From an uncultured Thermodesulfobacteriota bacterium (GTDB taxonomy: Bacteria; Desulfobacterota; WTBG01; CAIYCZ01): 64,000 nucleotides of DNA. The stretch covers positions 1,480 through 65,479 of the forward strand of contig CAZQKW010000011.1 of NCBI GenBank assembly GCA_964594075.1. Direction: 5' to 3'. Shown here in pieces: positions 13,726-31,463 of the stretch. How positions within the stretch are numbered: the stretch's first letter is position 1; each line of letters starts with the position of its first letter. The notes below the pieces were generated by a model that did not search any database, had not been told where the DNA came from, and worked only from the letters and a program-made list of their open reading frames with translations. The position numbers were made by a program, and so were the translations under genes.

Positions 13726-16700
13726 TTACTGCCCCTCGCTCCAGTAAATCGTCCCGCTCTTAGGATTGATCGCCGGCTGCACTTCTATTTCAACAATGAC
13801 ACCGGTGCTCTGCTGGCCGTAAATGCTGCCGCCCTCCTCATTGCCGGCATGAATGCCAATGGTTGATGACATGCCTTCTCCCAAAGATATGGAATCAAGA
13901 ATTACCGTTGCATTGTCTGCAGGTGTCCCGACCACCCGTTTTTTATAAGCGGTGCCGGTTTCATAATACACCGCATACAATCTGCTGGTTCCGCCGTAGC
14001 CACAGACATCAGCATTTGGCGTAAAGGCGGGGAACAGGGTTATGCCGCCAAACAATGCCGGTTTATTAATAATCCGCTCTGAGGGGCTGCCGGACACCAG
14101 GCTTCTCCGCCATCCGGGTTTTTCTTTGAGCGCCAGTTTCAGTTCATTGAACGTGGTTATAGAGGAATCACCGCCTGCTAATACTGTGACCGTGCCATCA
14201 GGCTTTATTTGATACGGATCCGCATTAAACAGATCTGCATGGCTCATCGGGCACGCAACATATTGATGATAGCAGGTGTTTTTATTGGGCCCATAGGCAT
14301 CATAAAACGGATCCTTGACGCCGTAATAATAATTCTGCTGCGATGTTGATTTATCCGCCTGAGATAAGTAACGGCCGGTTCCCATAAATACCCAGACATT
14401 ATCATACTTATCCATGCTTAAGCTGAAGGGTGCGGTGAATGGTGCAGGAGCACTGAACAGCGTGGTCCACTGCCAGTTGTTCGGGTTTGTTTCATAAACC
14501 GCCTCGGTTCCTTCTATGTAGGGAACATTCGTTATAGGAATGGCGATTTTATAAGCTTTTCCCTGCCAGGAACCGCTCAGATAGCTCTCCCCCACATAAA
14601 TGGCGTCGGCGCTGTAGTTCAGCGATTTATCAACCGCAACGGGAGAGTTCATAAATGCATTATTTTCGCTGCCTTCAAAATATTTCAGCAACTCGCCGGT
14701 CAGCAAGTTGATGATGAAGACGCGCCCTCTTTGTGTGCTCGTGCCATCATAATCGGTCGGCCCAGAACCAATGGTGCCGAACCATTGGTCATGCACTTTT
14801 ATCACCCCTGGAGTATTTATCGTCAGGCCGAGATTAGGATAGTTTCTTTCCCAGAGCAGGACCGGATCACGGGGATCCGTTATATCAAGCGCCGCAAAAC
14901 TGGACTTGAAGGTACCAACACCGGGCACAGTTATGTCTTTACCCCCCATATTCATGCCGCACAGCAACAGCGTTCCCCACCCGTTAGGGTGTTTGCCATC
15001 ATCGGTAAAAATTTTCACATCAACAACCTTTGGTTTCAGGTCAACATAGGGAACATGGGTGTAGGACTCGGAGGGAAGCCACTTCAAATGGGGCAGCAGA
15101 CACTGCGGAATGTATGCCCACAGCTCATCGCCGATCTGCTCTGATGAACCGCTCACCTGCTCAAATTTTTTCTGCTCCGGGTTATAATATCCTGAAGTAA
15201 AAGCATGGAGCATACCGTCATTGGCGCCCACATAGACCATGGTTTCGCGATTTTTATAGGTTTCGTAAAATGTCTGATACGACTCATCGTCATAGAGCAA
15301 ACCATAATTTTCCACTGGCCGGGCAATTGAAACCGGCGTTGAATAGACAATATCGCCCAGTTTCCAGACTTTATCGTTTATGGTGCGCGACCTCATGACA
15401 GGATTTCCCGTGTAGGCTGAAGAGTCTTCTGAAACACCCCTGATGTAATTAATAAGATTGTTGACCCTGTCATCATACGTTGCCCCCAAATAACTCCAAG
15501 GGCTATCGCAGGCAACACCCAAAAGCGGTTTTATGGTATTGGCATTAGACGTCGTAAATTCTATAAATTCACCGGGTTCAACCTGACCATTACTGTTTAC
15601 ATCCACGAAAGTATAAATATTGCGCGTATCCGCATCCCGATAGGCAAGACGTTTGCCCGCCTCCCAGATGGGGTTTATTTCCTCAAGGCTCAGATATTCC
15701 GGCGTTGCGTTTGAGATATCGGGGTAGGGGTTTGAGCTGACATCATAGCGTTTAACTTTAGATTCCCCTGACTCTGAGTCAAGATAAAATGAAAGGATTT
15801 TGTCGGTATTAACATTGAGCGATTTATCATTATCAGTGTCTTCGCGCAGATTGCCGTAAGTATCCACCCACAATGACTGTAAATACCCGGTCCACTTTAT
15901 TTCGTTGATGCCGTCAATATATGCGGGCCTGAAATATGCCTGCACCAGTGTTCCCTCGCCTTCCCCAGTCGTCGCCAGGACTGATACCGCGGTTCCTGAG
16001 GCAGCCCGTCTCAATATATCGTTTATAGCTAACATGAGCTGCCGCTCAAGCTGATATCCGTCGGTGGCCGCATAATAGGTATCAGGGTCTCCATCGCCGT
16101 TGGCATCCCACTCGAGGCGCTGCTCCGGCGGGTCGGTATATGTCCCATCCGGCTTATTATTGCCGTTTCGATCAGTAAACCCGCCATTGCGCGCTGCGTC
16201 TTTAAGCAGTTGTTTCCCCTGCTCATCGCCGCCGAATGCGTGAACAACATACAGAATCATGTTCTGGCTGCCGGATAGATCTGAACGCAAGTCATTGGTG
16301 CGGGCATAAAGCGCAAGATCCTTCAGATAGTCTGACCCGCAGTTTGGAAAGCTGTAGCCATAGGTTTCGCACGCGGTAGCAGTCGCTTCACCATCTTTCA
16401 CAATATCCACTTCGTCATTAGCAAAAGAGGTTTCAGCACTTTCACCAGAATAATTTTTATACTGATTGGGAATTTTTCTGTCCACAGACGGCGAACCGTC
16501 ATTCAGCAGGATGACAAAGCTTTTCGAGCACTCAATATTACCCCAGGGATCGCCGCCGCTGTTAGGCAGCGCGTTATTGGGATAGTCAAGCCCGCTCGCC
16601 AGTGGCTCCTGTTTGAAATATTGCATTGCCACATAATATGCTTCTGCAAGCGGTGTCAACGTATTACTGTGGGTATTCTGCAAGTCGGTTATCAGCGACG

Positions 16701-18579
16701 TCATATTGGTACCAATTGGGCTGACAACTCTTCCGCCGCTCTCATTGGAACCGGTACCGTAATTAAAAAATAAATTACCCCAACGCGCTTTATCGCCAAC
16801 CCGCTGCAAAACACCGGCAAGATTATGGTCCGGGCCGAAATCCTGCGGTTCATAGGCCTCTTCCTTTTGAACTCTTATATTGTAGCGTTCAGCATATCCG
16901 CTATAGGGGTTTGCATCCGCGGAATCTTCGCCGACATACAGATAGCCGGCTTTGATGCCATAGCAGCGCAACCCGTTATAGGGTGAAACACTGGTCACCC
17001 CGCTAAAATTATTGGCAAACCATTTTTGATAATAACAATCACTGTCATCCGGCGCTTCGCCGATGTTAGTCTGGTTTCCCGTCCCCTGACGGCTGGTGGC
17101 AAGACCGCCCATGAGAACTTTTCGCAGCACATCTATCCTCCTCATGCACAGCCAGTTAAGCCAGTTCCCGGACCATTCTCCTGAAGTACTGCGGACAAAT
17201 GTATTAGAGCTATAGGTGTAGCGCGCAGAAGGGTCAAAATATCCATAATACTGCAGGGGAGTCGGCGGGATAAATGAATATGTTATGATGAGCATAGGCG
17301 GATTTATCTGGTCGCCATCGTATGATAGCGCCTGCCGGACACCACTGCCGGAAAATTTAAACACCAGAGCATTGTTCGCAGTCCAGCCGCTTCTGTTTAC
17401 CAACTCCTGAACTATGGGGGCAAGTTCAGGCGTCTCATAGAATGCGCCGCTGCTCCAGCTCGGGATGGTATTCCAGTTCACCGATGCCGTGGTATTGGGT
17501 CTGCTTGAAATGCTATATGCGGAGGAGGTAAATACCGACGCATTGTCGGTATTTTCTCCATATATAACCAGGGATGCAGCAGAGGTTTTCCGCGCTGCAC
17601 TCTTAAACCGTATCACTGCTGAAGAAATTGTTGCACCTGGGGGAATGTCAACATTCTGGAACCGCAACCCTACCACCTGATTGACGCTGCCGTTCTGTAT
17701 AAGATCCAGCACGTTGCCGGTTAGATCAACGGCGCCGTCAGTTGTTGACTCTTCAGCGTCATCAGCGGACTGCCGGATCTTAACCTGAATGGTTTTGCTG
17801 CTTGGTCCCCCTTCATACGGGTCAGTAATATCCTGCCCGGCGCCGTTCCAAGTTCCGTAGGCGGCAAAATTCGTGCTTTTCGAATTATCAAGCATGATCA
17901 AAATATTTGGCTGTACAGAGGCATTTACCTGAAAAATAGGATAATCAGTATAGGTTGCCATGCTGGGTTCACTGCCTGAACATGTGACACTGGTCGTGGT
18001 GCTTGCCGCTGAGGTGGTAGTCGTGCTTACCGAGGTTGTAGTCGTCGGCGGTGTGGTGGTGGTTGAACTTACCGAGGTTGTAGTCGTTGGCTGCGTGGTG
18101 GTGGTTGAACTTACCGAGGTCGTAGTTGTCGGCGGTGTGGTGGTGGTTGTAATTGGCAATGCCGTTGTCGTGCTGGTAGTTGGCACAGATGTTGTCGCAG
18201 GTGGATTGACAGTTATGGTCCGGGTATAGGATTGCGAGGCATTACAACTTGGGGTGCATGCTCTATAAGTTACCGTATATATACCCGCCTGACCGGGTGC
18301 CGGCGTCCAGGTGAATGTTGCGGTGTAGGTGCTACCAGATTTCGTCACCGGACCAATACTTGCCCCGATTATGAGCGGGGAATATGAAAAGGTCACACTT
18401 TTATTACTGGTTGCTGTTAGGACAAAAGAGAGCAGTTCTCCTTCGTTGACAGTCTTGTTTCCGGGATCAGTAAAATTAAGTGTGTCAGCAAATGCGGCGG
18501 ACGACAGCATGAATAGAGATATGATTGTTATTATAACCCGCACCCTGTTTTTTTTCATATAAGTATTTTTTGATTTCAT
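13726..18579 (-). CDS. pilY1: type IV pilus tip adhesin PilY1/PilC family, giant (1617 aa): signal peptide, Ig-like domain, Thr-rich stalk, vWA domain with intact MIDAS (LDNSKS), C-terminal PilY1 beta-propeller
   Basis: C-terminal region carries the PilY1 hallmark VYVGANDGMLHAF and LWAYIPQ..LPHLKWL blocks. Integrin-like Ca motifs DANGDGDPD and DTDNDKS. Last gene of the fimT-pilW-pilV-pilX-pilY1 operon. Confidence 0.8.
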   Translation of the reverse strand: MKSKNTYMKKNRVRVIITIISLFMLSSAAFADTLNFTDPGNKTVNEGELLSFVLTATSNKSVTFSYSPLIIGASIGPVTKSGSTYTATFTWTPAPGQAGIYTVTYRACTPSCNASQSYTRTITVNPPATTSVPTTSTTTALPITTTTTPPTTTTSVSSTTTTQPTTTTSVSSTTTTPPTTTTSVSTTTTSAASTTTSVTCSGSEPSMATYTDYPIFQVNASVQPNILIMLDNSKSTNFAAYGTWNGAGQDITDPYEGGPSSKTIQVKIRQSADDAEESTTDGAVDLTGNVLDLIQNGSVNQVVGLRFQNVDIPPGATISSAVIRFKSAARKTSAASLVIYGENTDNASVFTSSAYSISSRPNTTASVNWNTIPSWSSGAFYETPELAPIVQELVNRSGWTANNALVFKFSGSGVRQALSYDGDQINPPMLIITYSFIPPTPLQYYGYFDPSARYTYSSNTFVRSTSGEWSGNWLNWLCMRRIDVLRKVLMGGLATSRQGTGNQTNIGEAPDDSDCYYQKWFANNFSGVTSVSPYNGLRCYGIKAGYLYVGEDSADANPYSGYAERYNIRVQKEEAYEPQDFGPDHNLAGVLQRVGDKARWGNLFFNYGTGSNESGGRVVSPIGTNMTSLITDLQNTHSNTLTPLAEAYYVAMQYFKQEPLASGLDYPNNALPNSGGDPWGNIECSKSFVILLNDGSPSVDRKIPNQYKNYSGESAETSFANDEVDIVKDGEATATACETYGYSFPNCGSDYLKDLALYARTNDLRSDLSGSQNMILYVVHAFGGDEQGKQLLKDAARNGGFTDRNGNNKPDGTYTDPPEQRLEWDANGDGDPDTYYAATDGYQLERQLMLAINDILRRAASGTAVSVLATTGEGEGTLVQAYFRPAYIDGINEIKWTGYLQSLWVDTYGNLREDTDNDKSLNVNTDKILSFYLDSESGESKVKRYDVSSNPYPDISNATPEYLSLEEINPIWEAGKRLAYRDADTRNIYTFVDVNSNGQVEPGEFIEFTTSNANTIKPLLGVACDSPWSYLGATYDDRVNNLINYIRGVSEDSSAYTGNPVMRSRTINDKVWKLGDIVYSTPVSIARPVENYGLLYDDESYQTFYETYKNRETMVYVGANDGMLHAFTSGYYNPEQKKFEQVSGSSEQIGDELWAYIPQCLLPHLKWLPSESYTHVPYVDLKPKVVDVKIFTDDGKHPNGWGTLLLCGMNMGGKDITVPGVGTFKSSFAALDITDPRDPVLLWERNYPNLGLTINTPGVIKVHDQWFGTIGSGPTDYDGTSTQRGRVFIINLLTGELLKYFEGSENNAFMNSPVAVDKSLNYSADAIYVGESYLSGSWQGKAYKIAIPITNVPYIEGTEAVYETNPNNWQWTTLFSAPAPFTAPFSLSMDKYDNVWVFMGTGRYLSQADKSTSQQNYYYGVKDPFYDAYGPNKNTCYHQYVACPMSHADLFNADPYQIKPDGTVTVLAGGDSSITTFNELKLALKEKPGWRRSLVSGSPSERIINKPALFGGITLFPAFTPNADVCGYGGTSRLYAVYYETGTAYKKRVVGTPADNATVILDSISLGEGMSSTIGIHAGNEEGGSIYGQQSTGVIVEIEVQPAINPKSGTIYWSEGQ
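17986..18204 (-). repeat. in-frame tandem repeats (about 48 nt, 3+ copies) encoding the Thr-rich stalk PTTTTSVSSTTTT(Q/P) of PilY1-1
   Basis: Near-identical units ...gaggtXgtagtcgtYggc(g/t)gtgtggtggtggttgaacttacc... are visible on the plus strand at about 18030-18170. Confidence 0.75.
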
Positions 18580-18606: not shown

Positions 18607-19278
18607 TTATTGCCAGGGAACATAACCATACCCTACGAAAACCTCGGCGCGAGGGGCAGCCGGGTTAATCGAGCCATCAGCCAGACGCAGATTTCTCGCA
18701 AATTTATTATGCGCTGCGTCCCAGGACGAAATTGTTCCCAACATGTCAATATTGTAAATAATGCGGTGCGTGCTTACCCCCACCCCCTCGGCGCCTGCCG
18801 CAAATTCAACCGCACCGCCGGTAACGTAACGGACATCTACCTTATCGACATCAATATCAAGGTTAAATTTATTCTTAATGCGGATCGATATATCCGGCGA
18901 ATCCTCAACGGTATCAACTGCCTGATTGTGCTTTTCCCATCTCCCGGAGTACAGGGGCGAATCATCCCGCCCTTCTAATAAAAAAGACCCGTCTAACATC
19001 TCTACATATTCATCGCTTCCCAGATAAACAAATTTTTCATTGTCAGACCATGAACCATACGCATTTTTCTCATACAATGCCGCTATTGGCGCGGCATATC
19101 CTGACTCTACCTGATAAAAGGTTTCTTTATGGACTTTTTCGTTACCGGCAATATCTATTTCGGTAATACTGGTATTCATTGCCGCAATACCGATAATGCA
19201 GCAAATGGTCAGCATAAACAGCGCAAGTATCAGTACAAATCCCTGCTCATTATGCGGTGTTGATAGTGACTGCTTCAT
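18607..19278 (-). CDS. pilX: type IV pilus minor pilin PilX
   Basis: Leader MKQSLSTPHNEQG|FVLILALFML. PilX_N-type motif AMNTSITEIDIAGNEKVHKETFYQVESGY. Confidence 0.7.
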   Translation of the reverse strand: MKQSLSTPHNEQGFVLILALFMLTICCIIGIAAMNTSITEIDIAGNEKVHKETFYQVESGYAAPIAALYEKNAYGSWSDNEKFVYLGSDEYVEMLDGSFLLEGRDDSPLYSGRWEKHNQAVDTVEDSPDISIRIKNKFNLDIDVDKVDVRYVTGGAVEFAAGAEGVGVSTHRIIYNIDMLGTISSWDAAHNKFARNLRLADGSINPAAPRAEVFVGYGYVPWQ

Positions 19279-19332: not shown

Positions 19333-19836
19333 TCACCCATGCCGTGACAGGGTAAAGCGCAGCACCACCGGCTTTGTTATCATGGGGCTACTTGAGCTGG
19401 CTGCGTCAATTTTTTTAATTGCGACTGAGGTGTCAATTTCTACCGTAGTGGTGTTTTCAATGGGATAATTTGCGGTGATGCGCCAGGTCATGGCACTCCC
19501 CCCTGCATCAACATTCGGTAACTGTTCTTCAGTAAACGCTCCCAAACCCCACGTTTGAAAATTCTCAATCGCTGTGGCGCTGTCGCATGGCACGGTGCGC
19601 GCTGTCGCAGCAGTGTCTGCAGGGTTCACATCAAGCGCTGCAATGCGATCATACGGCTGCTTCATGATCCACTCCATCCAGGCCTCCCCCACCGCACACC
19701 CTTCGGTAACTCTGCCGGCAAACACATTTGCCTGAATCGCTTTGGTCTGCATGGCTGCGACTCCCAGCAGCCCCACTACCAGCACGACAATGGCGATCAT
19801 TACTTCAACAATGCTAAATCCTTCCTGTTTCCACAT
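19333..19836 (-). CDS. pilV: type IV pilus minor pilin PilV
   Basis: Prepilin leader MWKQEG|FSIVEVMIAIVVLVVGLLGVAAMQ with E at +5. Starting at the internal ATG 19836 avoids overlap with pilW. Confidence 0.7.
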   Translation of the reverse strand: MWKQEGFSIVEVMIAIVVLVVGLLGVAAMQTKAIQANVFAGRVTEGCAVGEAWMEWIMKQPYDRIAALDVNPADTAATARTVPCDSATAIENFQTWGLGAFTEEQLPNVDAGGSAMTWRITANYPIENTTTVEIDTSVAIKKIDAASSSSPMITKPVVLRFTLSRHG

Positions 19837-19850
19837 AGGACATGATCCTC

Positions 19851-20555
19851 TTATTGCAGCCCCAGATTTCTGCATTTGATCTCGGTTATTAATAACTTCC
19901 GCTGATGCGAATCATTAAACGGCCCCCACGCGGCGGCCTCGGTATCATGGTCGGGATTGGATGCCGGGAAATAGCGTGTCGTATCACGATAACCGCGAAT
20001 TGTTTCTCTGGTTCTTGCCAGCAGAGAAAGTTCTATGGATCGTATATCTGCCGGGTTGATCGGATTGGCGGCAACTGTTCCGTCAGCAAGGTGATACAGA
20101 AGTTCCATGGCATCAACGTTGTCAGCTACTGGCTCAAGTGTTCCGTTTAAGCCAATCTGGCGGCCCAGATGGCAGGGAGCGCCATCGGCAATGCCGTCAC
20201 CATTTACATCATTGGTCAGAGCGTAGCGGACATATTCCTCGTCTTGAATAATCCCATCACCATTGATATCGCGAGCGAACCTGAATTCTGCTCTCCGGGC
20301 ACGGTTATTAGTGTTGTTTGCAGCATCAGCCTTCTCGCTGGGGTCATAGCCGGCCATTCTGATGTCACGATTCAAAAAAAAGAGCGCGGTGCGCAGATTC
20401 TGCTGCATATCTGAAACCTGCTCCTGGGTATGATAGGAATTCTGCTGCGCTTGATAAGAAGCATACAATGCTGCTGAAGCTATGCCAAAAATAGCCATTG
20501 CGATCATAAGCTCTACCAGGGTGAATCCCCAGTTTAGTTTTAGAGGCTTTTTCAT
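19851..20555 (-). CDS. pilW: type IV pilus minor pilin PilW
   Basis: MKKPLKLNWG|FTLVELMIAMAIFGIASAALYASYQAQQ. Size and position in the operon fit PilW. Confidence 0.7.
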   Translation of the reverse strand: MKKPLKLNWGFTLVELMIAMAIFGIASAALYASYQAQQNSYHTQEQVSDMQQNLRTALFFLNRDIRMAGYDPSEKADAANNTNNRARRAEFRFARDINGDGIIQDEEYVRYALTNDVNGDGIADGAPCHLGRQIGLNGTLEPVADNVDAMELLYHLADGTVAANPINPADIRSIELSLLARTRETIRGYRDTTRYFPASNPDHDTEAAAWGPFNDSHQRKLLITEIKCRNLGLQ

Positions 20556-21680: not shown

Positions 21681-21714
21681 CGGGGAGTGGCTCTTGCCAC
21701 TCCCCGTTTTTTTA
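21681..21714 (+). terminator. strong plus-strand intrinsic-terminator-like hairpin (11-bp GC stem, T7 tail) with no upstream plus-strand gene
   Basis: cggggagtggc-TCTT-gccactccccg followed by TTTTTTT. Two further hairpins precede it at 21616-21634 and 21645-21660. Confidence 0.5.
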
Positions 21715-21897
21715 TGGTATGGAAATTGGCATTGCGTTTATTTTTTACTCGGCTGCCGATGATCGGAGCGAATATGAGCTCACAGTAAGGGTTATGGGAA
21801 TTGATGGATCAACAATAGGAAGCATTATCGAAATAAAAACGTCTGGCATTGTCAAATATTCCCTGGATTGAAAGAGAACTTGAATAATTGGAAATTA

Positions 21898-24800: not shown

Positions 24801-27207
24801 TGGGTTGAAACGATCCTTCGTCTGGAACGACGCCCAGGCACCCACCAACTGATTTTGCAAAGGGAATTATGGTTACCACGGAGTCCCCAACCGGAATGGC
24901 TAATTGCGGCAGCGAGGACGGCATGCCGGCCGCAATCACCGTTATGTTCTGATCATTCGGGACACGGGAATTCACATCGTTACGATTCCCGTAATATGCA
25001 ACTGCCGCCGTATAAAAACTGCCGTTCCCGGTTGGGGCATCGGGACACAAGCCACGAATGGTGCCCAGTCCGTTTAGCGTTTTTTCCGTGCAGGCACCGT
25101 CAGCCTGCGACCCCGACTGTCCGATTAAATATGATCCGTTTATGCCTTCAGCCGAACCTATGGCATTGGCAAACGTGGCGGCGTTTAATCCGGAAACATC
25201 GCTCGCAAATGATCCAAAGGCAGTGCCGGGAACCGATTCAGAATCATAACTCGGCTTTGCGTCGCTCAAAACCAACAGGAACGGTTTAGCGCAATAATTA
25301 AAACCGTCCTCTTCGTTATAGGGATCCTTCCAGACGGCTTTGGGAAGCCCCAGGGCAGTATCAGCGGCCGTTTCCCGGTAATCAAAATCCGGCGTGGGCA
25401 CGGGTTTGCCTGCAAAGTAACGAACTGCCTCATACATCATCTCAGCCACCGGATTGCCCCAGTTCCCCTGCTCGCCGTCCGCCATCGGCCGGGTGGCAAT
25501 CCACGCCCCCGGCCATCCTGGCTCATACATATAATCATCATAGCGGAAACCATAAATCCGCAGCTTATCAATGGTCTTTATAATTCCGTTCAAGGCTGTA
25601 ACTTGTCCGGTCTGCGGATTAATTTCGTCCCTTAGCGATCCTATATTTTTTCGCAGCACGCCCCCGGAAATGTTTTTTGCAAAGGAGCCGGTCAATAGAC
25701 CAAAATACATTTGTTCGGACTCGCCATATCGCTGCAGCAGACCAACAGGCTTATGCCCACCGGAGGGATATTGTTTGCAATTGGCTTCTGGCATTGCCGA
25801 AACGCCAACCATTACCCGCACGGCATAATCAGTCAAAACAGATGCTTCAATTAACCGCTGCCAGGAAAGACTGTAGCTCCCATTACCATCGGTATTTTGC
25901 TGGCGAAATACCAGCCGGTGGATACCCGCCGTGAGATGTATGGTTCCCGTATGCACCGTGCAACTGCAGGCGGCATGAGCCCCATACCAGCCTGCAATGA
26001 CCGTCCCGTCTATGATAAGTTCCACGGCGTCGCTTCCGTCCACCGCAAATGTGTATATCGCAGTTCTGGGAACCTGCAACTGCCCGTTAAAAATGCTGAG
26101 ATAATTATTTTGCTGGTTTCCGAATGGATTGCCGACGCCGTTAATGTTGATCGCGGCTCCCGAGCCCCGCTTCCGCTCTTCGATAGCAACGGCGGCAACC
26201 AATGCATCATACTCGTCATGATCTGCCGGACACAACGCATATCCCGTCGTATCAAAGGCCGTCACCGTCAATTGTTCAAATGCGGTTCCCGGCACCGGTT
26301 CCCAGATGAGGGAGCGATCATGGGCGCAGTCGGGTCCGGTGGCGCCGTTCAGACAGCGCGTTCCCGCAACCGGCCGTTCAATTGAAACCCATTCCCATAT
26401 CCGATACGTGCTGTTTGTCAATACGCGCAGCAGGGGAGGACCTGCTTCGCTCAGCGACGTGTTAGCAAACAAATGCCGTGTTCCCGGCTCAGGAAAAGAA
26501 AGCGGTGTATATTCACGAATGTCATAGCCGTTGGTTTCTATGCTTTCATATTCCTTCCCCCATGAGTGGGCATCTTGCGGTATAAACGAGCGTTCTAAAA
26601 CGGTTTGGGTTTCGGTGTCTGTTGAACGGTAGCCGCCATACAGAACCTTTCGCAGACAATCAATACGCGACATGGTCAGGTAGTTCAAAAAATCACCGCT
26701 CCAGCGGCCGGGGCAGCGCTTGTCCGGCGTCACCGACACCGGTTCAAACCGGGCAGCGGTGGGACGATACTCATAACAGGTGTGGCAGTCAAAGTATCCG
26801 TAATAATCTATGGCCGGTTTATAACCAATATCCAGTTCGCCGTCGCCATCCAAATCAGTGGCATCATTGTAAGCCTCGTAATACAGGCTGTGGTCTCGTT
26901 CCATCACCAACATTACCAGCGGCGGCACTGCTCCATTAAGAAACAACGGCGGAGGTTCATTCGGCGGGGATTCTGCGGCACGGGCATGACCAGAGGTCTG
27001 GGGCAATATAAGACTCAGCACATTGCATAACCAGACAAACAAAAGTAATTTTACCTGGAAAATTCCTTGCGTTGGTTTGGCGGCACGTAACAACAGCTGG
27101 CCGCTATTAGAAAAGCCGCTTCTGAAACCTGCTTTCATCAAAAACCATATCCCGTTCAAAAGGACACGCATATTTCTCCAGAGCGTTTTTGTGCGTTCGC
27201 CGGTCAC
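21898..27207 (-). CDS. pilY1: second PilY1/PilC-family tip adhesin (1769 aa) with a PA14 domain inserted in the N-terminal half and the C-terminal PilY1 beta-propeller; exact start uncertain
   Basis: VYVGANDGMLHAF, LWAYIPQCVLPHLKWL and Ca-site-like DADKDGTPD. PA14-like block FAVDGSDAVELIIDGTVIAGWYG...GIHRLVFRQQNTDGNGSYSLSW at about residues 300-452. Colinear with pilY1-1 over the C-terminal ~1000 aa. Confidence 0.8.
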   Translation of the reverse strand: MTGERTKTLWRNMRVLLNGIWFLMKAGFRSGFSNSGQLLLRAAKPTQGIFQVKLLLFVWLCNVLSLILPQTSGHARAAESPPNEPPPLFLNGAVPPLVMLVMERDHSLYYEAYNDATDLDGDGELDIGYKPAIDYYGYFDCHTCYEYRPTAARFEPVSVTPDKRCPGRWSGDFLNYLTMSRIDCLRKVLYGGYRSTDTETQTVLERSFIPQDAHSWGKEYESIETNGYDIREYTPLSFPEPGTRHLFANTSLSEAGPPLLRVLTNSTYRIWEWVSIERPVAGTRCLNGATGPDCAHDRSLIWEPVPGTAFEQLTVTAFDTTGYALCPADHDEYDALVAAVAIEERKRGSGAAININGVGNPFGNQQNNYLSIFNGQLQVPRTAIYTFAVDGSDAVELIIDGTVIAGWYGAHAACSCTVHTGTIHLTAGIHRLVFRQQNTDGNGSYSLSWQRLIEASVLTDYAVRVMVGVSAMPEANCKQYPSGGHKPVGLLQRYGESEQMYFGLLTGSFAKNISGGVLRKNIGSLRDEINPQTGQVTALNGIIKTIDKLRIYGFRYDDYMYEPGWPGAWIATRPMADGEQGNWGNPVAEMMYEAVRYFAGKPVPTPDFDYRETAADTALGLPKAVWKDPYNEEDGFNYCAKPFLLVLSDAKPSYDSESVPGTAFGSFASDVSGLNAATFANAIGSAEGINGSYLIGQSGSQADGACTEKTLNGLGTIRGLCPDAPTGNGSFYTAAVAYYGNRNDVNSRVPNDQNITVIAAGMPSSLPQLAIPVGDSVVTIIPFAKSVGGCLGVVPDEGSFQPTNTVADFYIEQKTADRGRLRVNFEDMEQGADHDMDAIVFYEYQVHGNTVTMSVVSESAGSCLIQHLGYLISGTTEDGTYLVVRDRDTDESADVNYFLDTPQHPGSALPLHSTRSFTAGSSEQKMLPHNPLWYAAKWGAFEDHNGNNVPDDPTEWDADKDGTPDHYFYGSSMLRLEEQLNKSFAAMMQKTVSGSAAAVWSAGGKGEGMLLQAYFKPYLTDTNGRHTITWAGYLQSLWIDSYGNLREDTVHDYHLNPAEDKIIELFQDAGSGDIRVKRYAGDANNPDKKSGASELLTLDELEPLWEGGKKLWARAPEDRRIFTCTDRLIEFNTPNAAVLQPYLALGTGSDYSALGVTPQDRTSNLIAYIRGAADHAPLFTGNPVLRKRDVTIDGETHPWLLGDIVHSTPVVISKPVEQYGLLYDDASYREFYDAYRQRETVVYVGANDGMLHAFSAGRYDAAEQRFTPGVTVGIGEELWAYIPQCVLPHLKWLAMPSYNHLSYVDLKPKVVDAQIFNADAVHPNGWGTILICGMNMGGKPVTVANDAFPGGSRTFSSSYAVLDITDPARPPVLLWEKSFDGLGFTTSTPCVIKVHDAWLCVLSSGPTDYDGTSTNPGRIFIVDLRTGALQASEAFPGWFQTLQQNAWMNAPIALDKGLNYSVDAVYAGASYPDGDGRWRGTIYKLTIPITNGTYTEGGKAAYERNPARWKWSVLFDAPAPLAAPFSLSVDSSDTVWIYAGSGRYMAFTDKDSKNLAANQVNYLYGIKDPFYNAASPKKAACFHVYANDLENLSCKLTDTDLFYADPYRVKVGGAVEVLSGGDATIVTFDKLTAAVQAKDGWYRTLAATSPSERALQKPALVGGVVFFPAFAPAADVCSASGSSSLYGLYYVTGTAFSREVLGSRKNNPGAYVNEKSDYGSGLTAGVSIYAGKQDGATAFLQKSTGEIITVNIIPPHRVKSGAVYWKERR

Positions 27208-27250
27208 GCTATTTTTTATTCAACAGCCATTACCATCAACTGCGTAGATC

Positions 27251-27937
27251 TCAGTAAGGAATATACCCGTAGCCCACAATAATTTCTGAAAGGGGCACAG
27301 CGGGATTGATCGTTCCATCGGGCAGACGCAACAACCTGACAAAGCGGTTGTTCCTATTATCCCAGGCAGGCAGCGTCGCAATGCAATCCATATTATAAAT
27401 CACGGTATGCATGCTCACGCCCATGCCTTCACTGGCAGAAGAGAATTCGGCTCCTGCGCCGGAAAGGTGTCGCACCGCTATTTTATCCACGTCAACGTCT
27501 GCATTAAACCGCCCGGCGGCTCTGATCTCAATATCAGGAGAGCGTTCAACAGTATCAAGCTGCTTATTCTTATTCCACCTGCCAGACCCCGCGGGGTAAT
27601 CGTCCCTGCCCTCGAATAAGAATTCTCCATCTTTAATAACTATGGAACCCGGTGCGGGGAAATCAGAGAAATGTTCATTGTCTGCCCAGCTTCCATAGGC
27701 CCCCTGCATTCTGATAACCTCGGCTGCAATCAAATACCCGGCTTCTGCCTGATAGACAGTTTCTTTATGAACCCTTTCATTACCGGCAATGTCAAGTTCA
27801 GTGGTGCTGGTCAGCAATGCCGCAGCGCCAATAGTGCTGCAGATGCTGAGCATAAAAAGGGCGAGCACCAGCACAAACCCGTTCTCACGATCTGTTCTTT
27901 GGAAAACCTGCGGCATGCGCAATGGCGGTTGTCTCAT
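27251..27937 (-). CDS. pilX: type IV pilus minor pilin PilX (copy 2)
   Basis: ...RENG|FVLVLALFMLSICSTIGAAALLTSTTELDIAGNERVHKETVYQAEAGY. Paralog of 18607-19278. Confidence 0.7.
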   Translation of the reverse strand: MRQPPLRMPQVFQRTDRENGFVLVLALFMLSICSTIGAAALLTSTTELDIAGNERVHKETVYQAEAGYLIAAEVIRMQGAYGSWADNEHFSDFPAPGSIVIKDGEFLFEGRDDYPAGSGRWNKNKQLDTVERSPDIEIRAAGRFNADVDVDKIAVRHLSGAGAEFSSASEGMGVSMHTVIYNMDCIATLPAWDNRNNRFVRLLRLPDGTINPAVPLSEIIVGYGYIPY

Positions 27938-27944
27938 ATATCAA

Positions 27945-28469
27945 TTATATAGGGCGCGAAATAACAAAAATTAATGAACTGCTGTTTTGCCCTTCGGCTG
28001 CTTCTATTTTAATCGTGGTGGTGTTTGCAACCGGCGTCTGGGCATCAATATACCAGGTAATGCGGTAGTTTTTTGTCTGGAATTTGGGCAGTTGCGCTTC
28101 AGTAAAAAATTCGCCGGTTGGTGGCCTGAGCCCCAGATCATGCAGCGTTTCGCTGAGTTCCTGCGGATTCGTGCCGGCGATGGGCACAGCGGTAAAACGA
28201 CCTGCCTGCGGCTGCGTGTCCAACGCCGCAAGACAGTCATAGCCGATATACGTATCGCTGTCCGCGCGGTAATTCTGTCTGCTAAAATTAATCAGCCATT
28301 CCATCCACTGTTCTGCAACACCGGTTTTTTCGGTCAGCACTGTGGCGCGGCAGTTGTCGTTGATTGCTTTGAGCTGCATGGCCGCAACGCCCAGCAGACC
28401 GACCGTTAATATCATCACCGCGGTCATGACTTCCGTTATGGTAAATCCGGCTTCCCGATGCAACTGCAT
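27945..28469 (-). CDS. pilV: type IV pilus minor pilin PilV (copy 2)
   Basis: MQLHREAG|FTITEVMTAVMILTVGLLGVAAMQ. Confidence 0.7.
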   Translation of the reverse strand: MQLHREAGFTITEVMTAVMILTVGLLGVAAMQLKAINDNCRATVLTEKTGVAEQWMEWLINFSRQNYRADSDTYIGYDCLAALDTQPQAGRFTAVPIAGTNPQELSETLHDLGLRPPTGEFFTEAQLPKFQTKNYRITWYIDAQTPVANTTTIKIEAAEGQNSSSLIFVISRPI

Positions 28470-28514
28470 TCAGATCTCTCTTACATTCAATGAGCTGCAG
28501 CTCACGAGCCTGAA

Positions 28515-29294
28515 TTATTGCAGGCCCAGATTCCTGCAGGTCACGTTGGTTATTAATAATTTACGCCGATAACCGTCATTGAAAGGTCCCCAGACCTTTT
28601 TGCCCGCCCCGATTTCATGCCCGGGGTTAGATGCGGGAAAATAGACGCGCCTGTCCCTATGCCCGGCGATGACACGCTGCGTCCGCACTAACAAAGAAAC
28701 ATCAACGGCGCGGACATCGCTCGGGTTGGCCGGGTTCAGGGAGGTTGTGCCGTCTGCAAGATAATATAAAAATTCTAACGCTTCCACCTGTTCCGCAACC
28801 GGCTGCAGGCCGCCACTGCCATGTTCTCTTCCCAGGTTGCAGGGAAAACTGTCCGCTTGTCCGTCACGGTTGGCATCACGGCTCAATGCATAGCGAATCT
28901 TTTCTGCATTTTCAATCGTGCCGTTTTCATTTTCATCAACGACATATTTAAATTCTGCAACGCCGCATCGGTTGTCCCGGTGGCGTGCGGCGCCCGCTTG
29001 ACCGGTGGGATCGTATCCTGCCATCTTAATGCCCTGCGCCAGAAAAAACATGCCTGCCCGCAGATTTTGCTGCATGTCGGCAATCTGCTCCTGCGCAACA
29101 TATACATTCTGTTGGTGCTGGTAGGCTGTGTAAAAAGCAGCGGAGGCGATGCCAAAGATAGCAATGGCAATCATTAATTCTATGAGCGTAAACCCGCCAT
29201 GAATCGTCTTGACGCCAGGATCGTGCCTCCCGCCACCGTGTTTCTTGAATCCTCTGATAACCAACTTTCTCTGATCATTTCCATGCAGTCCCAT
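28515..29294 (-). CDS. pilW: type IV pilus minor pilin PilW (copy 2); unusually long N-terminal leader if the ATG at 29294 is used
   Basis: ...KTIHGG|FTLIELMIAIAIFGIASAAFYTAYQHQQ. Paralog of 19851-20555. Overlaps fimT-2 by 20 nt. Confidence 0.65.
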   Translation of the reverse strand: MGLHGNDQRKLVIRGFKKHGGGRHDPGVKTIHGGFTLIELMIAIAIFGIASAAFYTAYQHQQNVYVAQEQIADMQQNLRAGMFFLAQGIKMAGYDPTGQAGAARHRDNRCGVAEFKYVVDENENGTIENAEKIRYALSRDANRDGQADSFPCNLGREHGSGGLQPVAEQVEALEFLYYLADGTTSLNPANPSDVRAVDVSLLVRTQRVIAGHRDRRVYFPASNPGHEIGAGKKVWGPFNDGYRRKLLITNVTCRNLGLQ

Positions 29295-29769
29295 TCCACT
29301 GCCTCATAATAATACTGCCCGACGTCCTGGCGCCTATCGCATACGCCTGCCCCTTGTTGTTCTGAATATAGACATAGCCGCTGGTGCCGCTCACCAGCCC
29401 CTGGGGCGTAAAGGAGACGACATTATTTAAAAAACTGACGCCGTCGGCAGGCGGCGGCTCTCCGGTCGCTGACTGTGCAGCGTTTCCACAGCCAAAAGAA
29501 ATTCCTGCTGCTAATGCGATTAAATCACTGCCGTCAATCAGGTAACAACGATCATTAACTTTAAATGCAACGCTGATGGTGCGGTTCTGTTTGACCGCAC
29601 AGGAGCGCGCTTTTCGCAGGTGTGAACAAATATTCCGCGCGGAACTTTTAAGCCGATAATCGGGAAGGGCAGTGACGATGTTCGGCACTGCGATAAGCCC
29701 CAAAATGCCAATGATGGCCGAAATTATCATCAATTCAGTGAGACTAAAGCCTTTCTGACAGCCGTGCAT
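29275..29769 (-). CDS. fimT: FimT/FimU-type minor pilin (copy 2)
   Basis: MHGCQKG|FSLTELMIISAIIGILGLIAVP and LRKARSCAV. Confidence 0.6.
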   Translation of the reverse strand: MHGCQKGFSLTELMIISAIIGILGLIAVPNIVTALPDYRLKSSARNICSHLRKARSCAVKQNRTISVAFKVNDRCYLIDGSDLIALAAGISFGCGNAAQSATGEPPPADGVSFLNNVVSFTPQGLVSGTSGYVYIQNNKGQAYAIGARTSGSIIMRQWNGTAWK

Positions 29770-31450: not shown

Positions 31451-31463
31451 GGAGATTGCAGGT

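What the first reader, a model, noticed from the sequence alone, without database searches (positions are those of the whole stretch)
13726..29769. Tandem duplication of an entire type IV pilus minor-pilin/tip-adhesin operon with diversified giant PilY1 adhesins
Two complete fimT-pilW-pilV-pilX-pilY1 operons lie head-to-tail on the minus strand: 20605-21108 down to 13726, and 29275-29769 down to 21898.

The cognate minor pilins are clearly paralogous. Both PilY1 proteins are about 1.5 times the usual length. They are colinear only in the C-terminal ~1000 aa, which carries the GANDGMLHAF propeller and Ca-site motifs.

The N-terminal halves differ by module. Copy 1 has an Ig-like domain, a Thr-rich repetitive stalk, a vWA domain with an intact DxSxS MIDAS and an extra ~200-aa insertion. 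Copy 2 lacks the stalk and has a degenerate MIDAS (ERDHS). It carries a PA14 carbohydrate-binding-type domain at about residues 300-452.

This looks like a two-cassette adhesin repertoire, giving pili with alternative tip specificities. It is not a simple recent duplication. Such adhesins may matter for partner or surface attachment in a syntroph.
Basis: partly seen in the sequence, partly recalled or inferred. Interest (0 to 1): 0.65.

Follow-up and report, generated by a model that had tools for sequence, protein, structure and literature searches.

The report
Two tandem pilus-tip adhesin gene cassettes
An uncultured deltaproteobacterium carries two adjacent, anciently duplicated gene sets for the tip complex of its type IV pili; their large PilY1 tip proteins carry different sugar-binding-like modules, one of them through a swapped front end, which is a new example of a known way of giving pili alternative tips.

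Summary
Two minus-strand clusters (21108 to 13726 and 29769 to 21898) each encode four minor pilins (GspH/FimT-like, PilW-like, PilV, PilX) and a giant PilY1. Cognate proteins are 36-57% identical. DNA similarity is patchy (63-74%). All ten genes are under purifying selection (dN/dS 0.05-0.25).

PF05567 hits both PilY1s. PA14 is confirmed in copy 2 by Pfam and Foldseek. The "extra insertion" in copy 1 is a mobile CBM96-like beta-sandwich. The Ig-like segment has only sub-threshold support. The vWA call rests on invariant MIDAS motifs and one transitive alignment; no direct Pfam, PDB-profile or Foldseek hit was found.

First, the tandem dates to an ancestor shared with two MAGs in which both PilY1s are PA14-type. 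Second, copy 1 is a chimera. Residues up to about 945 come from a different PilY1 family, and residues 945-1617 (the propeller) belong to the resident clade (198-200 of 200 bootstraps, clean controls).

Multiple minor-pilin/PilY1 sets with variable N-termini are already described in Myxococcus. Nine of 77 related reference-genome loci also carry tandem PilY1 genes. Verdict: a real, functional two-cassette tip repertoire and a new member of a known kind. Ligands and any syntrophic role are untested.

The parts
29275..29769 (-). Cluster 2, gene 1: GspH/FimT(FimU)-like minor pilin (H2, 164 aa)
   Evidence: Pfam GspH E 1.2e-6 and N_methyl. 48% identical to H1. dN/dS 0.15 against the L003 ortholog.
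28515..29294 (-). Cluster 2, gene 2: PilW/GspJ-like minor pilin (W2). The longest ORF is 259 aa; the true start may be later, because the prepilin cleavage site G|FTLIELM lies at residues 33-34.
   Evidence: N_methyl E 3.6e-8. PilW PF16074 E 1.7e-4, below cutoff. TIGR01711 gspJ partial hit. 57% identical to W1. Closest non-orthologous match is the upstream cluster of L005, at 70%.
27945..28469 (-). Cluster 2, gene 3: PilV-like minor pilin (V2, 174 aa)
   Evidence: TIGR02523 PilV E 4.8e-10, below cutoff. 36-38% identical to V1.
27251..27937 (-). Cluster 2, gene 4: PilX-like minor pilin (X2, 228 aa; public gene aa)
   Evidence: PilX_N weak hit, E 0.0019. 54% identical to X1, which passes the PilX_N cutoff.
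21898..27207 (-). Cluster 2, gene 5: PilY1 copy 2 (Y2). 1769 aa from GTG; the public gene call is 1757 aa. Layout: hydrophobic signal-like segment at about residues 50-78; MIDAS-less scaffold from about 95; PA14 insertion at about 300-455; a second all-beta insertion at about 758-931; an EF-hand-like loop EWDADKDGTPD at 955; the PilY1 propeller from about 1200 to the end.
   Evidence: PF05567 E 1e-11 and PA14 E 6.6e-7. 3HX6 E 3.4e-13 and 6qdi PA14. AF2 model of residues 78-1000 has pLDDT 87.7. Foldseek top hits are sugar-binding PA14 domains: 6m8m, Epa1 and Flo. Block map. dN/dS 0.15 overall, with PA14 at 0.19 and the scaffold at 0.05.
21722..21868 (+). Remnant (last 49 codons) of a convergent 147-aa type IV pilin gene. 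The gene is intact between the clusters in the closest relative.
   Evidence: tblastn with the L001 pilin gives 86% identity over 49 aa. A stretch of about 355 bp (L001 15415-15769) is missing from the window. The same state is seen in the JGI and Logan assemblies.
20605..21108 (-). Cluster 1, gene 1: GspH/FimT(FimU)-like minor pilin (H1, 167 aa)
   Evidence: N_methyl E 5.6e-8. GspH E 0.0021, just below cutoff. dN/dS 0.10.
19851..20555 (-). Cluster 1, gene 2: PilW/GspJ-like minor pilin (W1, 234 aa)
   Evidence: N_methyl E 1.3e-7 and partial gspJ hits. Best non-orthologous matches are the downstream clusters of L005 and L004, at 63-64%.
19333..19875 (-). Cluster 1, gene 3: PilV-like minor pilin (V1). 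The longest ORF is 180 aa; the likely start is M14, giving 167 aa.
   Evidence: TIGR02523 PilV E 1.9e-10, below cutoff. The public gene call is 167 aa.
18607..19278 (-). Cluster 1, gene 4: PilX (X1, 223 aa)
   Evidence: PilX_N E 2.7e-6, above cutoff. dN/dS 0.08.
13726..18579 (-). Cluster 1, gene 5: PilY1 copy 1 (Y1, 1617 aa), a chimera. Layout: signal peptide 1-31; Ig-like domain about 32-125; Thr-rich stalk 126-205; MIDAS strand 224-236; CBM96-like insertion about 250-436; vWA-like scaffold 437 to about 870; EF-hand-like loop EWDANGDGDPD at 823; junction at about residue 945; resident-type C-terminal region with the propeller 1074-1617.
   Evidence: PF05567 E 3.6e-17. 3HX6 E 2.6e-15. AF2 model of residues 32-900 has pLDDT above 90 for most of residues about 220-860. 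Foldseek hits 8wab and 7vbo CBMs. CBM96 E 0.0019 and He_PIG E 6.7e-4, both below cutoff. Quartet bootstraps. dN/dS 0.03-0.13 in every structured segment, including residues 1-125.
17992..18159 (-). Three 42-nt tandem repeats that encode the Thr-rich stalk of Y1
   Evidence: the repeat finder family D1. The Thr fraction is up to 0.56 in residues 126-200.
15600..15900 (-). Approximate recombination junction inside pilY1 copy 1 (codons about 895-995). It lies just downstream of the most conserved motif, GYLQSLWVDxYGNLREDT.
   Evidence: In a sliding-window quartet analysis the best topology switches between windows 845-994 and 895-1044. Partition 795-944 groups with family A in 200/200 replicates. 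Partition 945-1200 groups with clade B in 198/200.

Best explanation
The region encodes two alternative priming/tip complexes for a type IVa pilus. Each cassette supplies four minor pilins (GspH/FimU-like, PilW, PilV, PilX) and its own PilY1.

By analogy with M. xanthus and P. aeruginosa (inferred), the four minor pilins and the C-terminal propeller of PilY1 assemble in the inner-membrane machine. They prime polymerisation of a major pilin encoded elsewhere and then ride at the pilus tip. The variable N-terminal part of PilY1 is exposed there as the adhesin.

The two cassettes arose by tandem duplication of a PA14-type cassette in an ancestor shared with two other MAG lineages (shown). In the lineage of this genome, recombination replaced the first ~945 residues of the downstream PilY1 with those of a different PilY1 family (shown). 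The incoming part has an intact MIDAS motif and a CBM96-like insertion. An Ig-like domain and a Thr-rich stalk were added later. The original propeller, which must dock on that cassette's own minor pilins, was kept.

The cell can therefore build pili with two different tips (inferred). One carries a PA14 lectin-like module on a MIDAS-less scaffold. The other carries a metal-dependent MIDAS site and a CBM-like module on a stalk. The tips probably bind different glycan or surface ligands.
For: Shown:
- Gene content and family hits for both cassettes.
- Operon-like spacing: gaps of 54 nt or less, or overlaps.
- Paralogy at 36-57% identity.
- All ten genes are intact and under purifying selection, with dN/dS 0.05-0.25 against L003.
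- The tandem is conserved in relatives with about 80% and 91-94% DNA identity.
- Minor pilins of cluster 1 are orthologous to the downstream clusters of L004 and L005, and those of cluster 2 to the upstream clusters. Any other genome reaches 49% at most for H and W. This places the duplication in their common ancestor.
- Both PilY1s in L004 and L005 are PA14-type.
- Quartet bootstraps: Y1 residues 437-944 group with the CBM/MIDAS family in 200/200 replicates. Residues 945-1617 group with the resident PA14 clade in 198-200/200, even with Y2 and P0122 excluded. The divergent ortholog P0002 gives the same result. Control proteins from either family do not switch.
- The PA14 fold is supported by Pfam and Foldseek.
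- The CBM-like fold of the Y1 insertion is supported by Foldseek (8wab E 1.2e-6, target TM 0.67; 7vbo), by a weak CBM96 hit, and by 2-4 tandem copies of the module in unrelated secreted proteins.
- MIDAS residues are invariant in 61/61 members of the copy-1 family.

From the literature: minor pilins plus PilY1 form the priming and tip complex, with the PilY1 C-terminal domain on the pilin side and the variable N-terminus at the extreme tip. Three such clusters in M. xanthus are proposed to give tips with different properties (PMC7541494). Multiple PilY1 proteins per genome are common (PMC13190605).
Against: - There are no expression, localisation or binding data. The alternative-specificity step is an inference from domain content.
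- No pilus machinery or major pilin gene is in the 64-kb window, so a functional T4aP in this organism is assumed.
- The vWA fold of the scaffold was not detected directly by Pfam, by PDB profile search or among the Foldseek top 50.
- The PA14 Asp-Asp (DcisD) calcium/sugar motif is Ser-Asp in this lineage (PMC8092209).
- The canonical propeller calcium loop (P. aeruginosa DNNSDGVAD) is only partly conserved: DKSLNYSAD in Y1 and DKGLNYSVD in Y2.
- The chimera inference uses distance-based quartets, not full maximum-likelihood phylogenies.
- The Ig-like call is below Pfam cutoffs and that segment is poorly modelled.
Confidence: 0.72

Rival explanations
1. The cassettes are redundant or condition-specific, not ligand-specific. 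Both build functionally equivalent tips, and two copies are kept because they work or are expressed under different physico-chemical conditions such as calcium level, redox state or growth phase. This resembles M. xanthus clusters 1 and 3, each of which alone supports motility.
For: [quoted passage not shown] Here the 790-bp gap with its own AT-rich upstream region suggests separate promoters. The two proteins differ in metal-site motifs: MIDAS is intact in one and absent in the other, and the propeller calcium loops differ.
Against: A wholesale replacement of about 945 N-terminal residues with a different module set, kept under strong purifying selection (omega 0.03-0.06), is more than regulatory subfunctionalisation needs. 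Pairs of a PA14-type and a MIDAS-type PilY1 recur in independent lineages (L009, L017, L028).
Confidence: 0.18
2. One or both cassettes do not serve adhesion by a retractile T4aP. They prime a short pseudopilus or secretion-type fibre, for example a T2SS-like or Geobacter-type pilin system that exports extracellular proteins. In that case the PilY1 modules bind cargo or cell-envelope polysaccharide.
For: The minor pilins also give partial hits to T2SS pseudopilin models GspH, GspI and GspJ. No T4aP machine genes are in the window. A multihaem cytochrome and a porin-like gene lie about 20 kb away.
Against: A PilY1 propeller (PF05567; 3HX6 at E about 1e-13 to 1e-15 for the single proteins and 2.6e-41 with the family profile) and PilX_N are signatures of T4aP minor-pilin sets, not of T2SS. 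The GspH/I/J hits are far below their cutoffs and cover only the N-terminal helix. The cytochrome genes are not linked to the clusters.
Confidence: 0.06
3. The second copy is an artefact or a decaying duplicate: either an assembly duplication or a pseudogenising cassette.
For: The intercluster pilin gene is truncated in this genome, which shows that gene decay does occur at this locus. Public gene callers truncate Y1 to 1389-1411 aa.
Against: The copies are only 36-57% identical as proteins, with no long identical DNA. All ten ORFs are intact with dN/dS of 0.25 or less. The arrangement is conserved across relatives and across three assemblies. The 5' part of Y1 omitted by the gene callers has omega 0.05-0.13 and supplies the only signal peptide.
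Confidence: 0.02

Closest known systems
Myxococcus xanthus minor-pilin/PilY1 clusters 1-3 (Treuner-Lange et al. 2020, PMC7541494; Mahanta et al. 2026, PMC13190605)
   Same: There are several complete sets of four minor pilins (FimU/GspH-type, PilV, PilW, PilX) plus a PilY1. The C-terminal PilY1 domain is conserved and the N-termini differ. One N-terminal type has vWFA/MIDAS and the other types have a lectin-like domain. The sets are proposed to give priming complexes and tips with different properties on a single machine.
   Different: - Here the sets are directly tandem (790 bp apart), not dispersed.
- The gene order is H-W-V-X-Y1.
- The lectin-like modules are PA14 and a CBM96-like beta-sandwich, not DUF4114. 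They are inserted into the scaffold, not placed at the N-terminal end.
- One PilY1 is demonstrably a recombinant of two PilY1 families.
- The organism is an uncultured Thermodesulfobacteriota bacterium with no functional data.
Pseudomonas aeruginosa fimU-pilVWXY1E operon and the PilY1 C-terminal domain (PDB 3HX6)
   Same: The propeller is homologous: E 2.6e-15 and 3.4e-13 for the single proteins, and 2.6e-41 with the family profile. The GANDGMLH motif aligns. The operon logic is the same, with minor pilins followed by pilY1. The copy-1 family has vWA-type MIDAS motifs at the N-terminus.
   Different: - P. aeruginosa has a single set per genome and a 1161-aa PilY1 (my recollection).
- No pilE follows pilY1 here. 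The only nearby extra pilin gene is convergent and truncated.
- The calcium loop DNNSDGVAD is DKSLNYSAD or DKGLNYSVD here.
- PA14 and CBM-like insertions are absent from P. aeruginosa PilY1.
PA14 lectin domains of large adhesins (Marinomonas primoryensis MpIBP, Candida Epa, yeast Flo)
   Same: The Y2 insertion has the PA14 fold by Pfam (29.7 bits against a cutoff of 24) and by Foldseek (6m8m, 6x7z, Epa1A; probability 1.0; target TM 0.57-0.60). It sits in a surface adhesin.
   Different: The Asp-Asp (DcisD) pair that holds the sugar-binding calcium is Ser-Asp in this protein and its two closest orthologs. It is Asp-Asp in 58 of 61 family members (PMC8092209). Sequence identity to the lectins is only 14-17%.
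CBM96 / acidic-polysaccharide-binding CBMs (PDB 7VBO alginate-binding; 8WAB chondroitin-sulfate-binding)
   Same: The Y1 insertion (about residues 250-436) matches these by fold (E 1.2e-6 to 4.5e-5; target TM 0.50-0.67) and weakly matches Pfam CBM96 (E 0.0019). Like a CBM, it occurs as tandem repeats in multidomain secreted enzymes.
   Different: The Pfam match is below the cutoff and sequence identity is 12-19%. The module is inserted into an adhesin scaffold right after the MIDAS strand, not appended to a glycan-degrading enzyme. Its ligand is unknown.

Membership tests
PilY1/PilC type IV pilus tip protein (PF05567) | C-terminal PilY1 beta-propeller domain | tested here: met
   PF05567 scores 62.8 bits (Y1) and 44.8 bits (Y2) against a cutoff of 28.1. 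phmmer to 3HX6 gives E 2.6e-15 and 3.4e-13. The family profile gives E 2.6e-41.
PilY1/PilC type IV pilus tip protein (PF05567) | Encoded directly downstream of a minor-pilin set that includes PilX | tested here: met
   Both pilY1 genes start 27-43 nt after a PilX_N-containing gene, and three prepilin-type genes precede each.
PilY1/PilC type IV pilus tip protein (PF05567) | Nine-residue calcium-binding loop in the propeller (P. aeruginosa D851-D859, DNNSDGVAD) | tested here: inconclusive
   The aligned loops are DKSLNYSAD (Y1) and DKGLNYSVD (Y2). The first and last Asp are kept and the middle ligands are changed. A separate EF-hand-like loop, EWDxxxDGxPD, is invariant in alignment A1.
PilY1/PilC type IV pilus tip protein (PF05567) | Located at the pilus tip and required for piliation or adhesion | not testable with these tools
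   This needs genetics and microscopy in an uncultured organism.
Type IVa pilus core minor-pilin set (FimU/GspH, PilV, PilW, PilX) | Four genes with a class III (prepilin) signal and an N-terminal methylation motif | tested here: met
   N_methyl (PF07963) or TIGR02532 hits H1, W1, V1, H2, W2 and V2. The PilX proteins carry PilX_N in its place.
Type IVa pilus core minor-pilin set (FimU/GspH, PilV, PilW, PilX) | Family-specific matches for each of the four members | tested here: inconclusive
   GspH passes the cutoff in H2 only. PilX_N passes in X1 only. The PilV (TIGR02523) and PilW (PF16074) hits are below cutoff. Assignments are supported by cognate paralogy and by gene order conserved across many loci.
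von Willebrand factor A (vWA) domain with MIDAS | Sequence match to vWA family models (PF00092 / PF13519) | tested here: not met
   There is no hit even at E up to 10 for either N-terminal half, and none for family members P0004 and P0052. A family-profile search of PDB sequences finds no vWA chain.
von Willebrand factor A (vWA) domain with MIDAS | MIDAS residues: DxSxS after beta-1, a Thr, and an Asp after beta-4 | tested here: met
   This applies to Y1 only. D231, S233, S235 and D694 are invariant in 61/61 family members, and T640 and T642 are nearly invariant. Y1 218-434 aligns (E 1e-33) to P0109 45-304, whose residues 52-147 are a Pfam VWA hit. The motif is not met in Y2, whose family consensus is G-R-D/N-H-K.
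von Willebrand factor A (vWA) domain with MIDAS | Rossmann-like alpha/beta fold similar to solved vWA domains | tested here: inconclusive
PA14 domain (PF07691), lectin type | PA14 beta-sandwich fold | tested here: met
   Pfam scores 29.7 bits against a cutoff of 24. phmmer to 6qdi gives E 2.4e-7. Foldseek matches MpPA14, Epa and Flo domains with probability 1.0.
PA14 domain (PF07691), lectin type | Consecutive Asp-Asp (DcisD) pair coordinating the carbohydrate-binding calcium | tested here: not met
   Y2 has D390-G-S392-D393. The column is Asp in 58 of 61 family members and Ser only in Y2, P0121 and P0122. The motif definition is from PMC8092209.
CBM96-like carbohydrate-binding module | Match to family model PF24517 above the curated cutoff | tested here: not met
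   The hit scores 18.5 bits against a cutoff of 26, with E 0.0019, and is partial.
CBM96-like carbohydrate-binding module | Beta-sandwich fold similar to solved CBMs, and behaviour as an autonomous module | tested here: met
   Foldseek matches 8wab (E 1.2e-6, target TM 0.67) and 7vbo (E 4.5e-5). The module occurs 2-4 times in tandem in unrelated secreted proteins at 36-44% identity. It is absent from about 1250-aa members of the same PilY1 family.
CBM96-like carbohydrate-binding module | Binds a polysaccharide | not testable with these tools
   This needs binding assays.

The most novel reading that the evidence does not exclude
PilY1 tip adhesins in Thermodesulfobacteriota evolve by cassette-style exchange. 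Tandem duplication creates a spare minor-pilin/PilY1 set. Recombination at the universally conserved GYLQSLWVDxYGNLREDT motif then grafts a foreign N-terminal adhesin head onto the resident propeller, which stays matched to its own minor pilins. The head carries lectin-like modules such as PA14 or a CBM96-like domain. The resulting pair of glycan-binding tips lets one pilus machine attach to different partners or polymers, for example in syntrophic aggregates. This would be a general, testable mechanism for retargeting type IV pili.
Probability: 0.3. Interest if true: 0.55.

Novelty: new member of a known kind. Interest (0 to 1): 0.33.

Why it matters
Type IV pili mediate attachment, aggregation and possibly partner contact in anaerobic consortia, and the tip protein PilY1 sets what the pilus sticks to.

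This locus is a clean natural example of how a bacterium gets a second tip. The whole priming cassette is duplicated. The exposed head of one PilY1 is then replaced, while the part that docks on the minor pilins is kept.

The locus also extends the catalogue of PilY1 head modules. The literature on studied proteins lists only vWFA and DUF4114. Here there are PA14 and a CBM96-like domain, and related domain architectures are common in uncultured Thermodesulfobacteriota.

The practical value is modest. The locus offers candidate glycan-binding adhesins and a defined recombination junction for engineering or for comparative studies. It does not change the current model of type IV pilus tips.

Tried and rejected
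- Pfam at E up to 10 on both N-terminal halves gave no vWA hit. NCBIfam gave nothing for either PilY1.
- A family-profile search against PDB sequences found only 3HX6 and noise.
- An exact look-up of Y1 failed because public gene calls start at M207 or M229.
- The genome-contig scan did not contain the source species, so the organism could be placed only as an uncultured Thermodesulfobacteriota/Deltaproteobacteria lineage.
- Rfam found nothing in the intercluster gap. The promoter and terminator scan was at chance level overall.
- I looked for long identical or inverted repeats that could drive switching or gene conversion between the cassettes and found none. A phase-variation or shuffling mechanism is therefore rejected.
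- Recent gene conversion from Y2 as the source of Y1's resident-type C-terminus is rejected. Y1 is no closer to Y2 (52%) than to other clade members (53-57%), and the result holds with Y2 excluded.
- The dN/dS values for L001 Y2 and V1 were discarded because my extraction was out of frame. The L003 values were used in their place.
- A first whole-C-terminus NJ tree was superseded by the partitioned quartet analysis.

Full report
**1. Observation**

The minus strand carries two operon-like runs of five ORFs at exactly the coordinates given.

Cluster 1:
- H1, 20605-21108
- W1, 19851-20555
- V1, 19333-19875
- X1, 18607-19278
- Y1, 13726-18579 (1617 aa)

Cluster 2:
- H2, 29275-29769
- W2, 28515-29294
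- V2, 27945-28469
- X2, 27251-27937
- Y2, 21898-27207 (1769 aa from a GTG)

Within each cluster the intergenic distances are 54 nt or less, or the genes overlap.

Pfam and NCBIfam give these hits:
- Prepilin N-methylation motifs in H, W and V of both clusters.
- GspH in H2 (above cutoff) and H1 (just below).
- PilW/GspJ-like and PilV (TIGR02523) hits, all below cutoff.
- PilX_N in X1 (above cutoff) and X2 (weak).
- The PilY1 propeller PF05567 in both large proteins (62.8 and 44.8 bits; cutoff 28.1).
- PA14 only in Y2 (residues 361-452, 29.7 bits; cutoff 24).

Both large proteins match the solved P. aeruginosa PilY1 C-terminal domain 3HX6 (E 2.6e-15 and 3.4e-13).

Cognate proteins are 48% (H), 57% (W), 36-38% (V) and 54% (X) identical. 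The PilY1s are 50% identical over about 850 C-terminal residues, with only short collinear patches further upstream. At DNA level only 63-74% identical patches remain, and there are no long identical repeats.

An assembly duplication is excluded by three facts:
- The two copies are highly diverged.
- The tandem is conserved in relatives L001 (91-94% nucleotide identity) and L003 (about 80%).
- Two other public assemblies are 100% identical to the window over 16.8-20.7 kb.

**2. Domain anatomy of the two PilY1 proteins**

*Copy 2.* An AlphaFold2 model of residues 78-1000, built with 60 homologues, is confident (pLDDT 87.7, pTM 0.84). Its best PDB matches are carbohydrate-binding PA14 domains: the Marinomonas RTX adhesin, Candida Epa and yeast Flo. 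A pairwise block map shows that Y2 has three specific insertions relative to Y1:
- the PA14 block (about 292-453);
- a short block at 543-579;
- a second all-beta block (about 758-931).

*Copy 1.* The model of residues 32-900 is confident from about residue 220 onward, but poor for the Ig and stalk part, which only one homologue covers. Its best PDB matches are a chondroitin-sulfate-binding CBM (8WAB, E 1.2e-6, target TM 0.67) and an alginate-binding CBM (7VBO).

On its own this segment gives a sub-threshold CBM96 hit (E 0.0019). The same module occurs 2-4 times in tandem in unrelated secreted proteins at 36-44% identity. These include a protein annotated as a chitinase, metallophosphatases and PKD or Kelch proteins. 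The module is absent from a subset of the same PilY1 family that is about 1250 aa long. It is therefore a mobile, CBM-like domain.

The N-terminal segment 32-128 gives sub-threshold but full-length matches to Ig families: He_PIG E 6.7e-4 and Big_9 E 1.2e-3. The Thr-rich stalk is encoded by three 42-nt tandem repeats.

Public gene calls start Y1 at M207 or M229 and omit this region. However, it contains the only signal peptide, and codons 1-125 have dN/dS of 0.05-0.13. The long form is therefore the real one.

**3. The vWA question**

No direct method detected a vWA domain in either protein:
- Pfam at E up to 10 found nothing.
- A PDB profile search found nothing.
- No vWA structure is among the top 50 Foldseek hits of either model.

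Indirect support is strong for copy 1. In 61 of 61 family members the DxSxS triad (D231, S233, S235) and the Asp of the "LLTDG" strand (D694) are invariant, and a "DTxTPL" Thr is nearly so. In addition, Y1 218-434 aligns (E 1e-33) to another PilY1, P0109. In P0109 the corresponding strand is a Pfam VWA hit and is followed by the same CBM-like module.

Copy 2 has "ERDHS" at this position. Its whole family has the conserved alternative G-R-D/N-H-K, with "SD" in place of "TDG". The MIDAS loss is therefore an old family trait and not a local degeneration.

I treat "vWA-like scaffold" as likely but unproven.

**4. Metal and sugar-site details**

The propeller calcium loop of P. aeruginosa (DNNSDGVAD) aligns to DKSLNYSAD in Y1 and DKGLNYSVD in Y2, so it is only partly conserved. 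An EF-hand-like loop (EWDANGDGDPD in Y1, EWDADKDGTPD in Y2) is invariant across both families.

In the PA14 domain, the consecutive Asp pair coordinates the sugar-binding calcium in lectin-type PA14 domains (PMC8092209). This pair is Asp-Asp in 58 of 61 family members. It is Ser-Asp in Y2 and its two closest orthologues. Canonical sugar binding by this particular PA14 is therefore uncertain.

**5. Evolutionary history**

Both PilY1 types belong to large families of similarly long proteins, about 1450 aa and about 1800 aa. They come mostly from uncultured Deltaproteobacteria/Thermodesulfobacteriota.

Among 77 reference-genome loci, nine carry two PilY1 genes within 10 kb. These include three pairs of a PA14-type and a MIDAS-type gene (L009, L017, L028) and same-type pairs (L004, L073).

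Minor-pilin comparisons show the following:
- Window cluster 1 is orthologous to the downstream cluster of two MAGs, L004 and L005 (W1 63-64%).
- Cluster 2 is orthologous to their upstream cluster (W2 70% to L005).
- For H and W, any other genome reaches 49% at most, which is below or about equal to the H1-H2 (48%) and W1-W2 (57%) identities.

The tandem duplication therefore happened in the common ancestor of these lineages. In both L004 and L005, both PilY1s are PA14-type with the Y2-like scaffold.

A bootstrapped four-group quartet analysis used these groups: the Y1 group; family A (CBM/MIDAS type); clade B (the nearby PA14 clade); and F (distant PA14-type proteins). The results were:
- Y1 residues 437-944 join family A in 200 of 200 replicates.
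- Residues 945-1200 join clade B in 198 of 200, and residues 1201-1617 in 200 of 200.
- This holds even when Y2 and P0122 are removed from B.
- The divergent orthologue P0002 (67% identical) behaves identically.
- Control proteins from A (P0004, P0052) and from B (P0123, P0127) never switch.

The switch lies just after the most conserved motif of the whole family, GYLQSLWVDxYGNLREDT, which is a plausible homologous-recombination site.

Y1 is no closer to Y2 (52%) than to other B members (53-57%) in the last 400 residues. The resident-type C-terminus is therefore ancestral and not the product of recent gene conversion.

Copy 1 is thus a chimera: a foreign head on the resident propeller. The Ig domain and stalk were added later, because they are present only in Y1 and its close orthologues P0001 and L003.

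**6. Function**

All ten genes are intact and under purifying selection against the L003 orthologues (dN/dS 0.05-0.25). Within Y2, the PA14 segment has the highest omega among the structured parts (0.19, against 0.05 for the scaffold). Both cassettes are therefore maintained.

The literature model comes from PMC7541494. Four minor pilins plus PilY1 prime the T4aP and stay at its tip, with the PilY1 C-terminal domain on the pilin side and the variable N-terminus outermost. Applied here, the most likely reading is two alternative priming/tip complexes that present different adhesive heads.

The following are inferences, not demonstrations:
- that the ligands are glycans;
- that the two cassettes are used alternately;
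- that this matters for partner attachment.

No pilus machine or major pilin gene lies in the window.

The organism is an uncultured Thermodesulfobacteriota/Deltaproteobacteria lineage. An EtfAB plus FeS-oxidoreductase cluster is compatible with a syntrophic lifestyle but does not prove it.

**7. Comparison with what is known, and novelty**

Multiple minor-pilin/PilY1 clusters with conserved C-terminal and divergent N-terminal PilY1 regions are established in M. xanthus. That work explicitly proposes tips with different properties (PMC7541494). A 2026 survey finds about two PilY1 proteins per myxobacterial genome. It states that only vWFA and DUF4114 N-terminal domains have been recognised so far in the studied proteins (PMC13190605). 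No paper in the searched library combines "PilY1" with "PA14 domain".

The locus is therefore a new member of a known kind. The undescribed details are:
- the direct tandem arrangement;
- PA14 and CBM96-like modules inserted into the scaffold;
- a well-supported head-swap chimera.

It does not challenge the current model, so interest is moderate to low (0.33).

**8. Rivals**

| Rival explanation | Estimated weight |
|---|---|
| Condition-specific redundancy, not ligand specificity | about 0.18 |
| A pseudopilus or secretion role | about 0.06 |
| Artefact or decay | about 0.02 |

The condition-specific rival remains possible. The pseudopilus rival is unlikely given PF05567 and PilX_N. The artefact or decay rival is effectively refuted.

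Noticed in passing
window 21722-21868 (+); compare L001 15271-15714 (-): In the closest relative, a convergent 147-aa type IV pilin gene lies between the two clusters. It has a G|LTLIELLVV prepilin signal. In this genome a deletion of about 355 bp has removed its promoter and first ~98 codons, leaving only the last 49 codons. The L003 copy ends early (98 aa), and L004 and L005 lack the gene. The same deletion is present in the JGI and Logan assemblies.
   Followed up: partly
window 21681-21713 (+): A perfect 11-bp GC-rich hairpin followed by T7 lies in the intercluster gap, preceded by sigma-70-like hexamers at 21512-21539 and 21592-21620. In L001 it sits about 90-115 nt upstream of the intact pilin gene, on the same strand. 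It could be a small RNA terminator or a leader/attenuator. There is no Rfam match.
   Followed up: partly
window 17961-18579 (-), codons 1-206 of pilY1 copy 1: Public gene calls (JGI 1411 aa, NCBI/Logan 1389 aa) start Y1 after the Thr-rich repeats, so they omit the signal peptide, Ig-like domain and stalk. They call short opposite-strand ORFs there instead. dN/dS of 0.05-0.13 on codons 1-125 shows the long form is the real gene.
   Followed up: yes
window 26029-26040 (-), Y2 residues 390-393: The conserved PA14 motif D-G-D-D is D-G-S-D only in this protein and its two closest orthologues (3 of 61 family members). The Asp-Asp pair is the DcisD calcium/sugar site in lectin-type PA14 domains.
   Followed up: partly
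window 13465-13659 (-): A 64-aa ORF that looks, from its sequence, like a small protein with two transmembrane segments lies 66 nt downstream of pilY1 copy 1 on the same strand. A 64-aa gene is also called at the corresponding position in L003, and the ORF is called in the JGI annotation. It might belong to the operon.
   Followed up: no
window 7008-7466 (-): A stand-alone PilZ-domain (c-di-GMP-binding type) protein lies about 6 kb from cluster 1. A link to pilus regulation is possible but untested.
   Followed up: no
window 11718-12490 (+): An overlapping gene pair encodes a nucleotidyltransferase (NTP_transf_2) and a HEPN-domain protein, the arrangement typical of a HEPN/MNT toxin-antitoxin module. 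It lies next to a tRNA gene at 11492-11564.
   Followed up: no
window 40846-45158 (+) and 50317-53242 (+): EtfB and EtfA (the latter with an N-terminal ferredoxin domain) are followed by a CCG/4Fe-4S oxidoreductase. This arrangement is common in syntrophic fatty-acid oxidisers (from my own knowledge). Further on, a multihaem cytochrome (MtrC/c7-like hits) lies next to an Alginate_exp-family outer-membrane porin.
   Followed up: no
L004 (JAPLIX010000439.1), L005 (CAWDOY010000005.1), L009, L017, L028, L073: Other Thermodesulfobacteriota MAGs also carry two PilY1 genes within 10 kb. In L009 the two pilY1 genes are only about 740 bp apart, too close for a full set of minor-pilin genes between them, so they may share one minor-pilin set. 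The PilY1 genes of L005 show frameshifts that look like long-read sequencing errors.
   Followed up: partly
window 30482-32486 (+) compared with L001 5562-6838: The E1 alpha/beta dehydrogenase genes upstream of cluster 2 are intact in the window. In the 94%-identical relative L001 they are partly deleted and only a 158-aa Transketolase_C fragment is called. The flanks of the pilus locus are therefore structurally unstable among close relatives.
   Followed up: no
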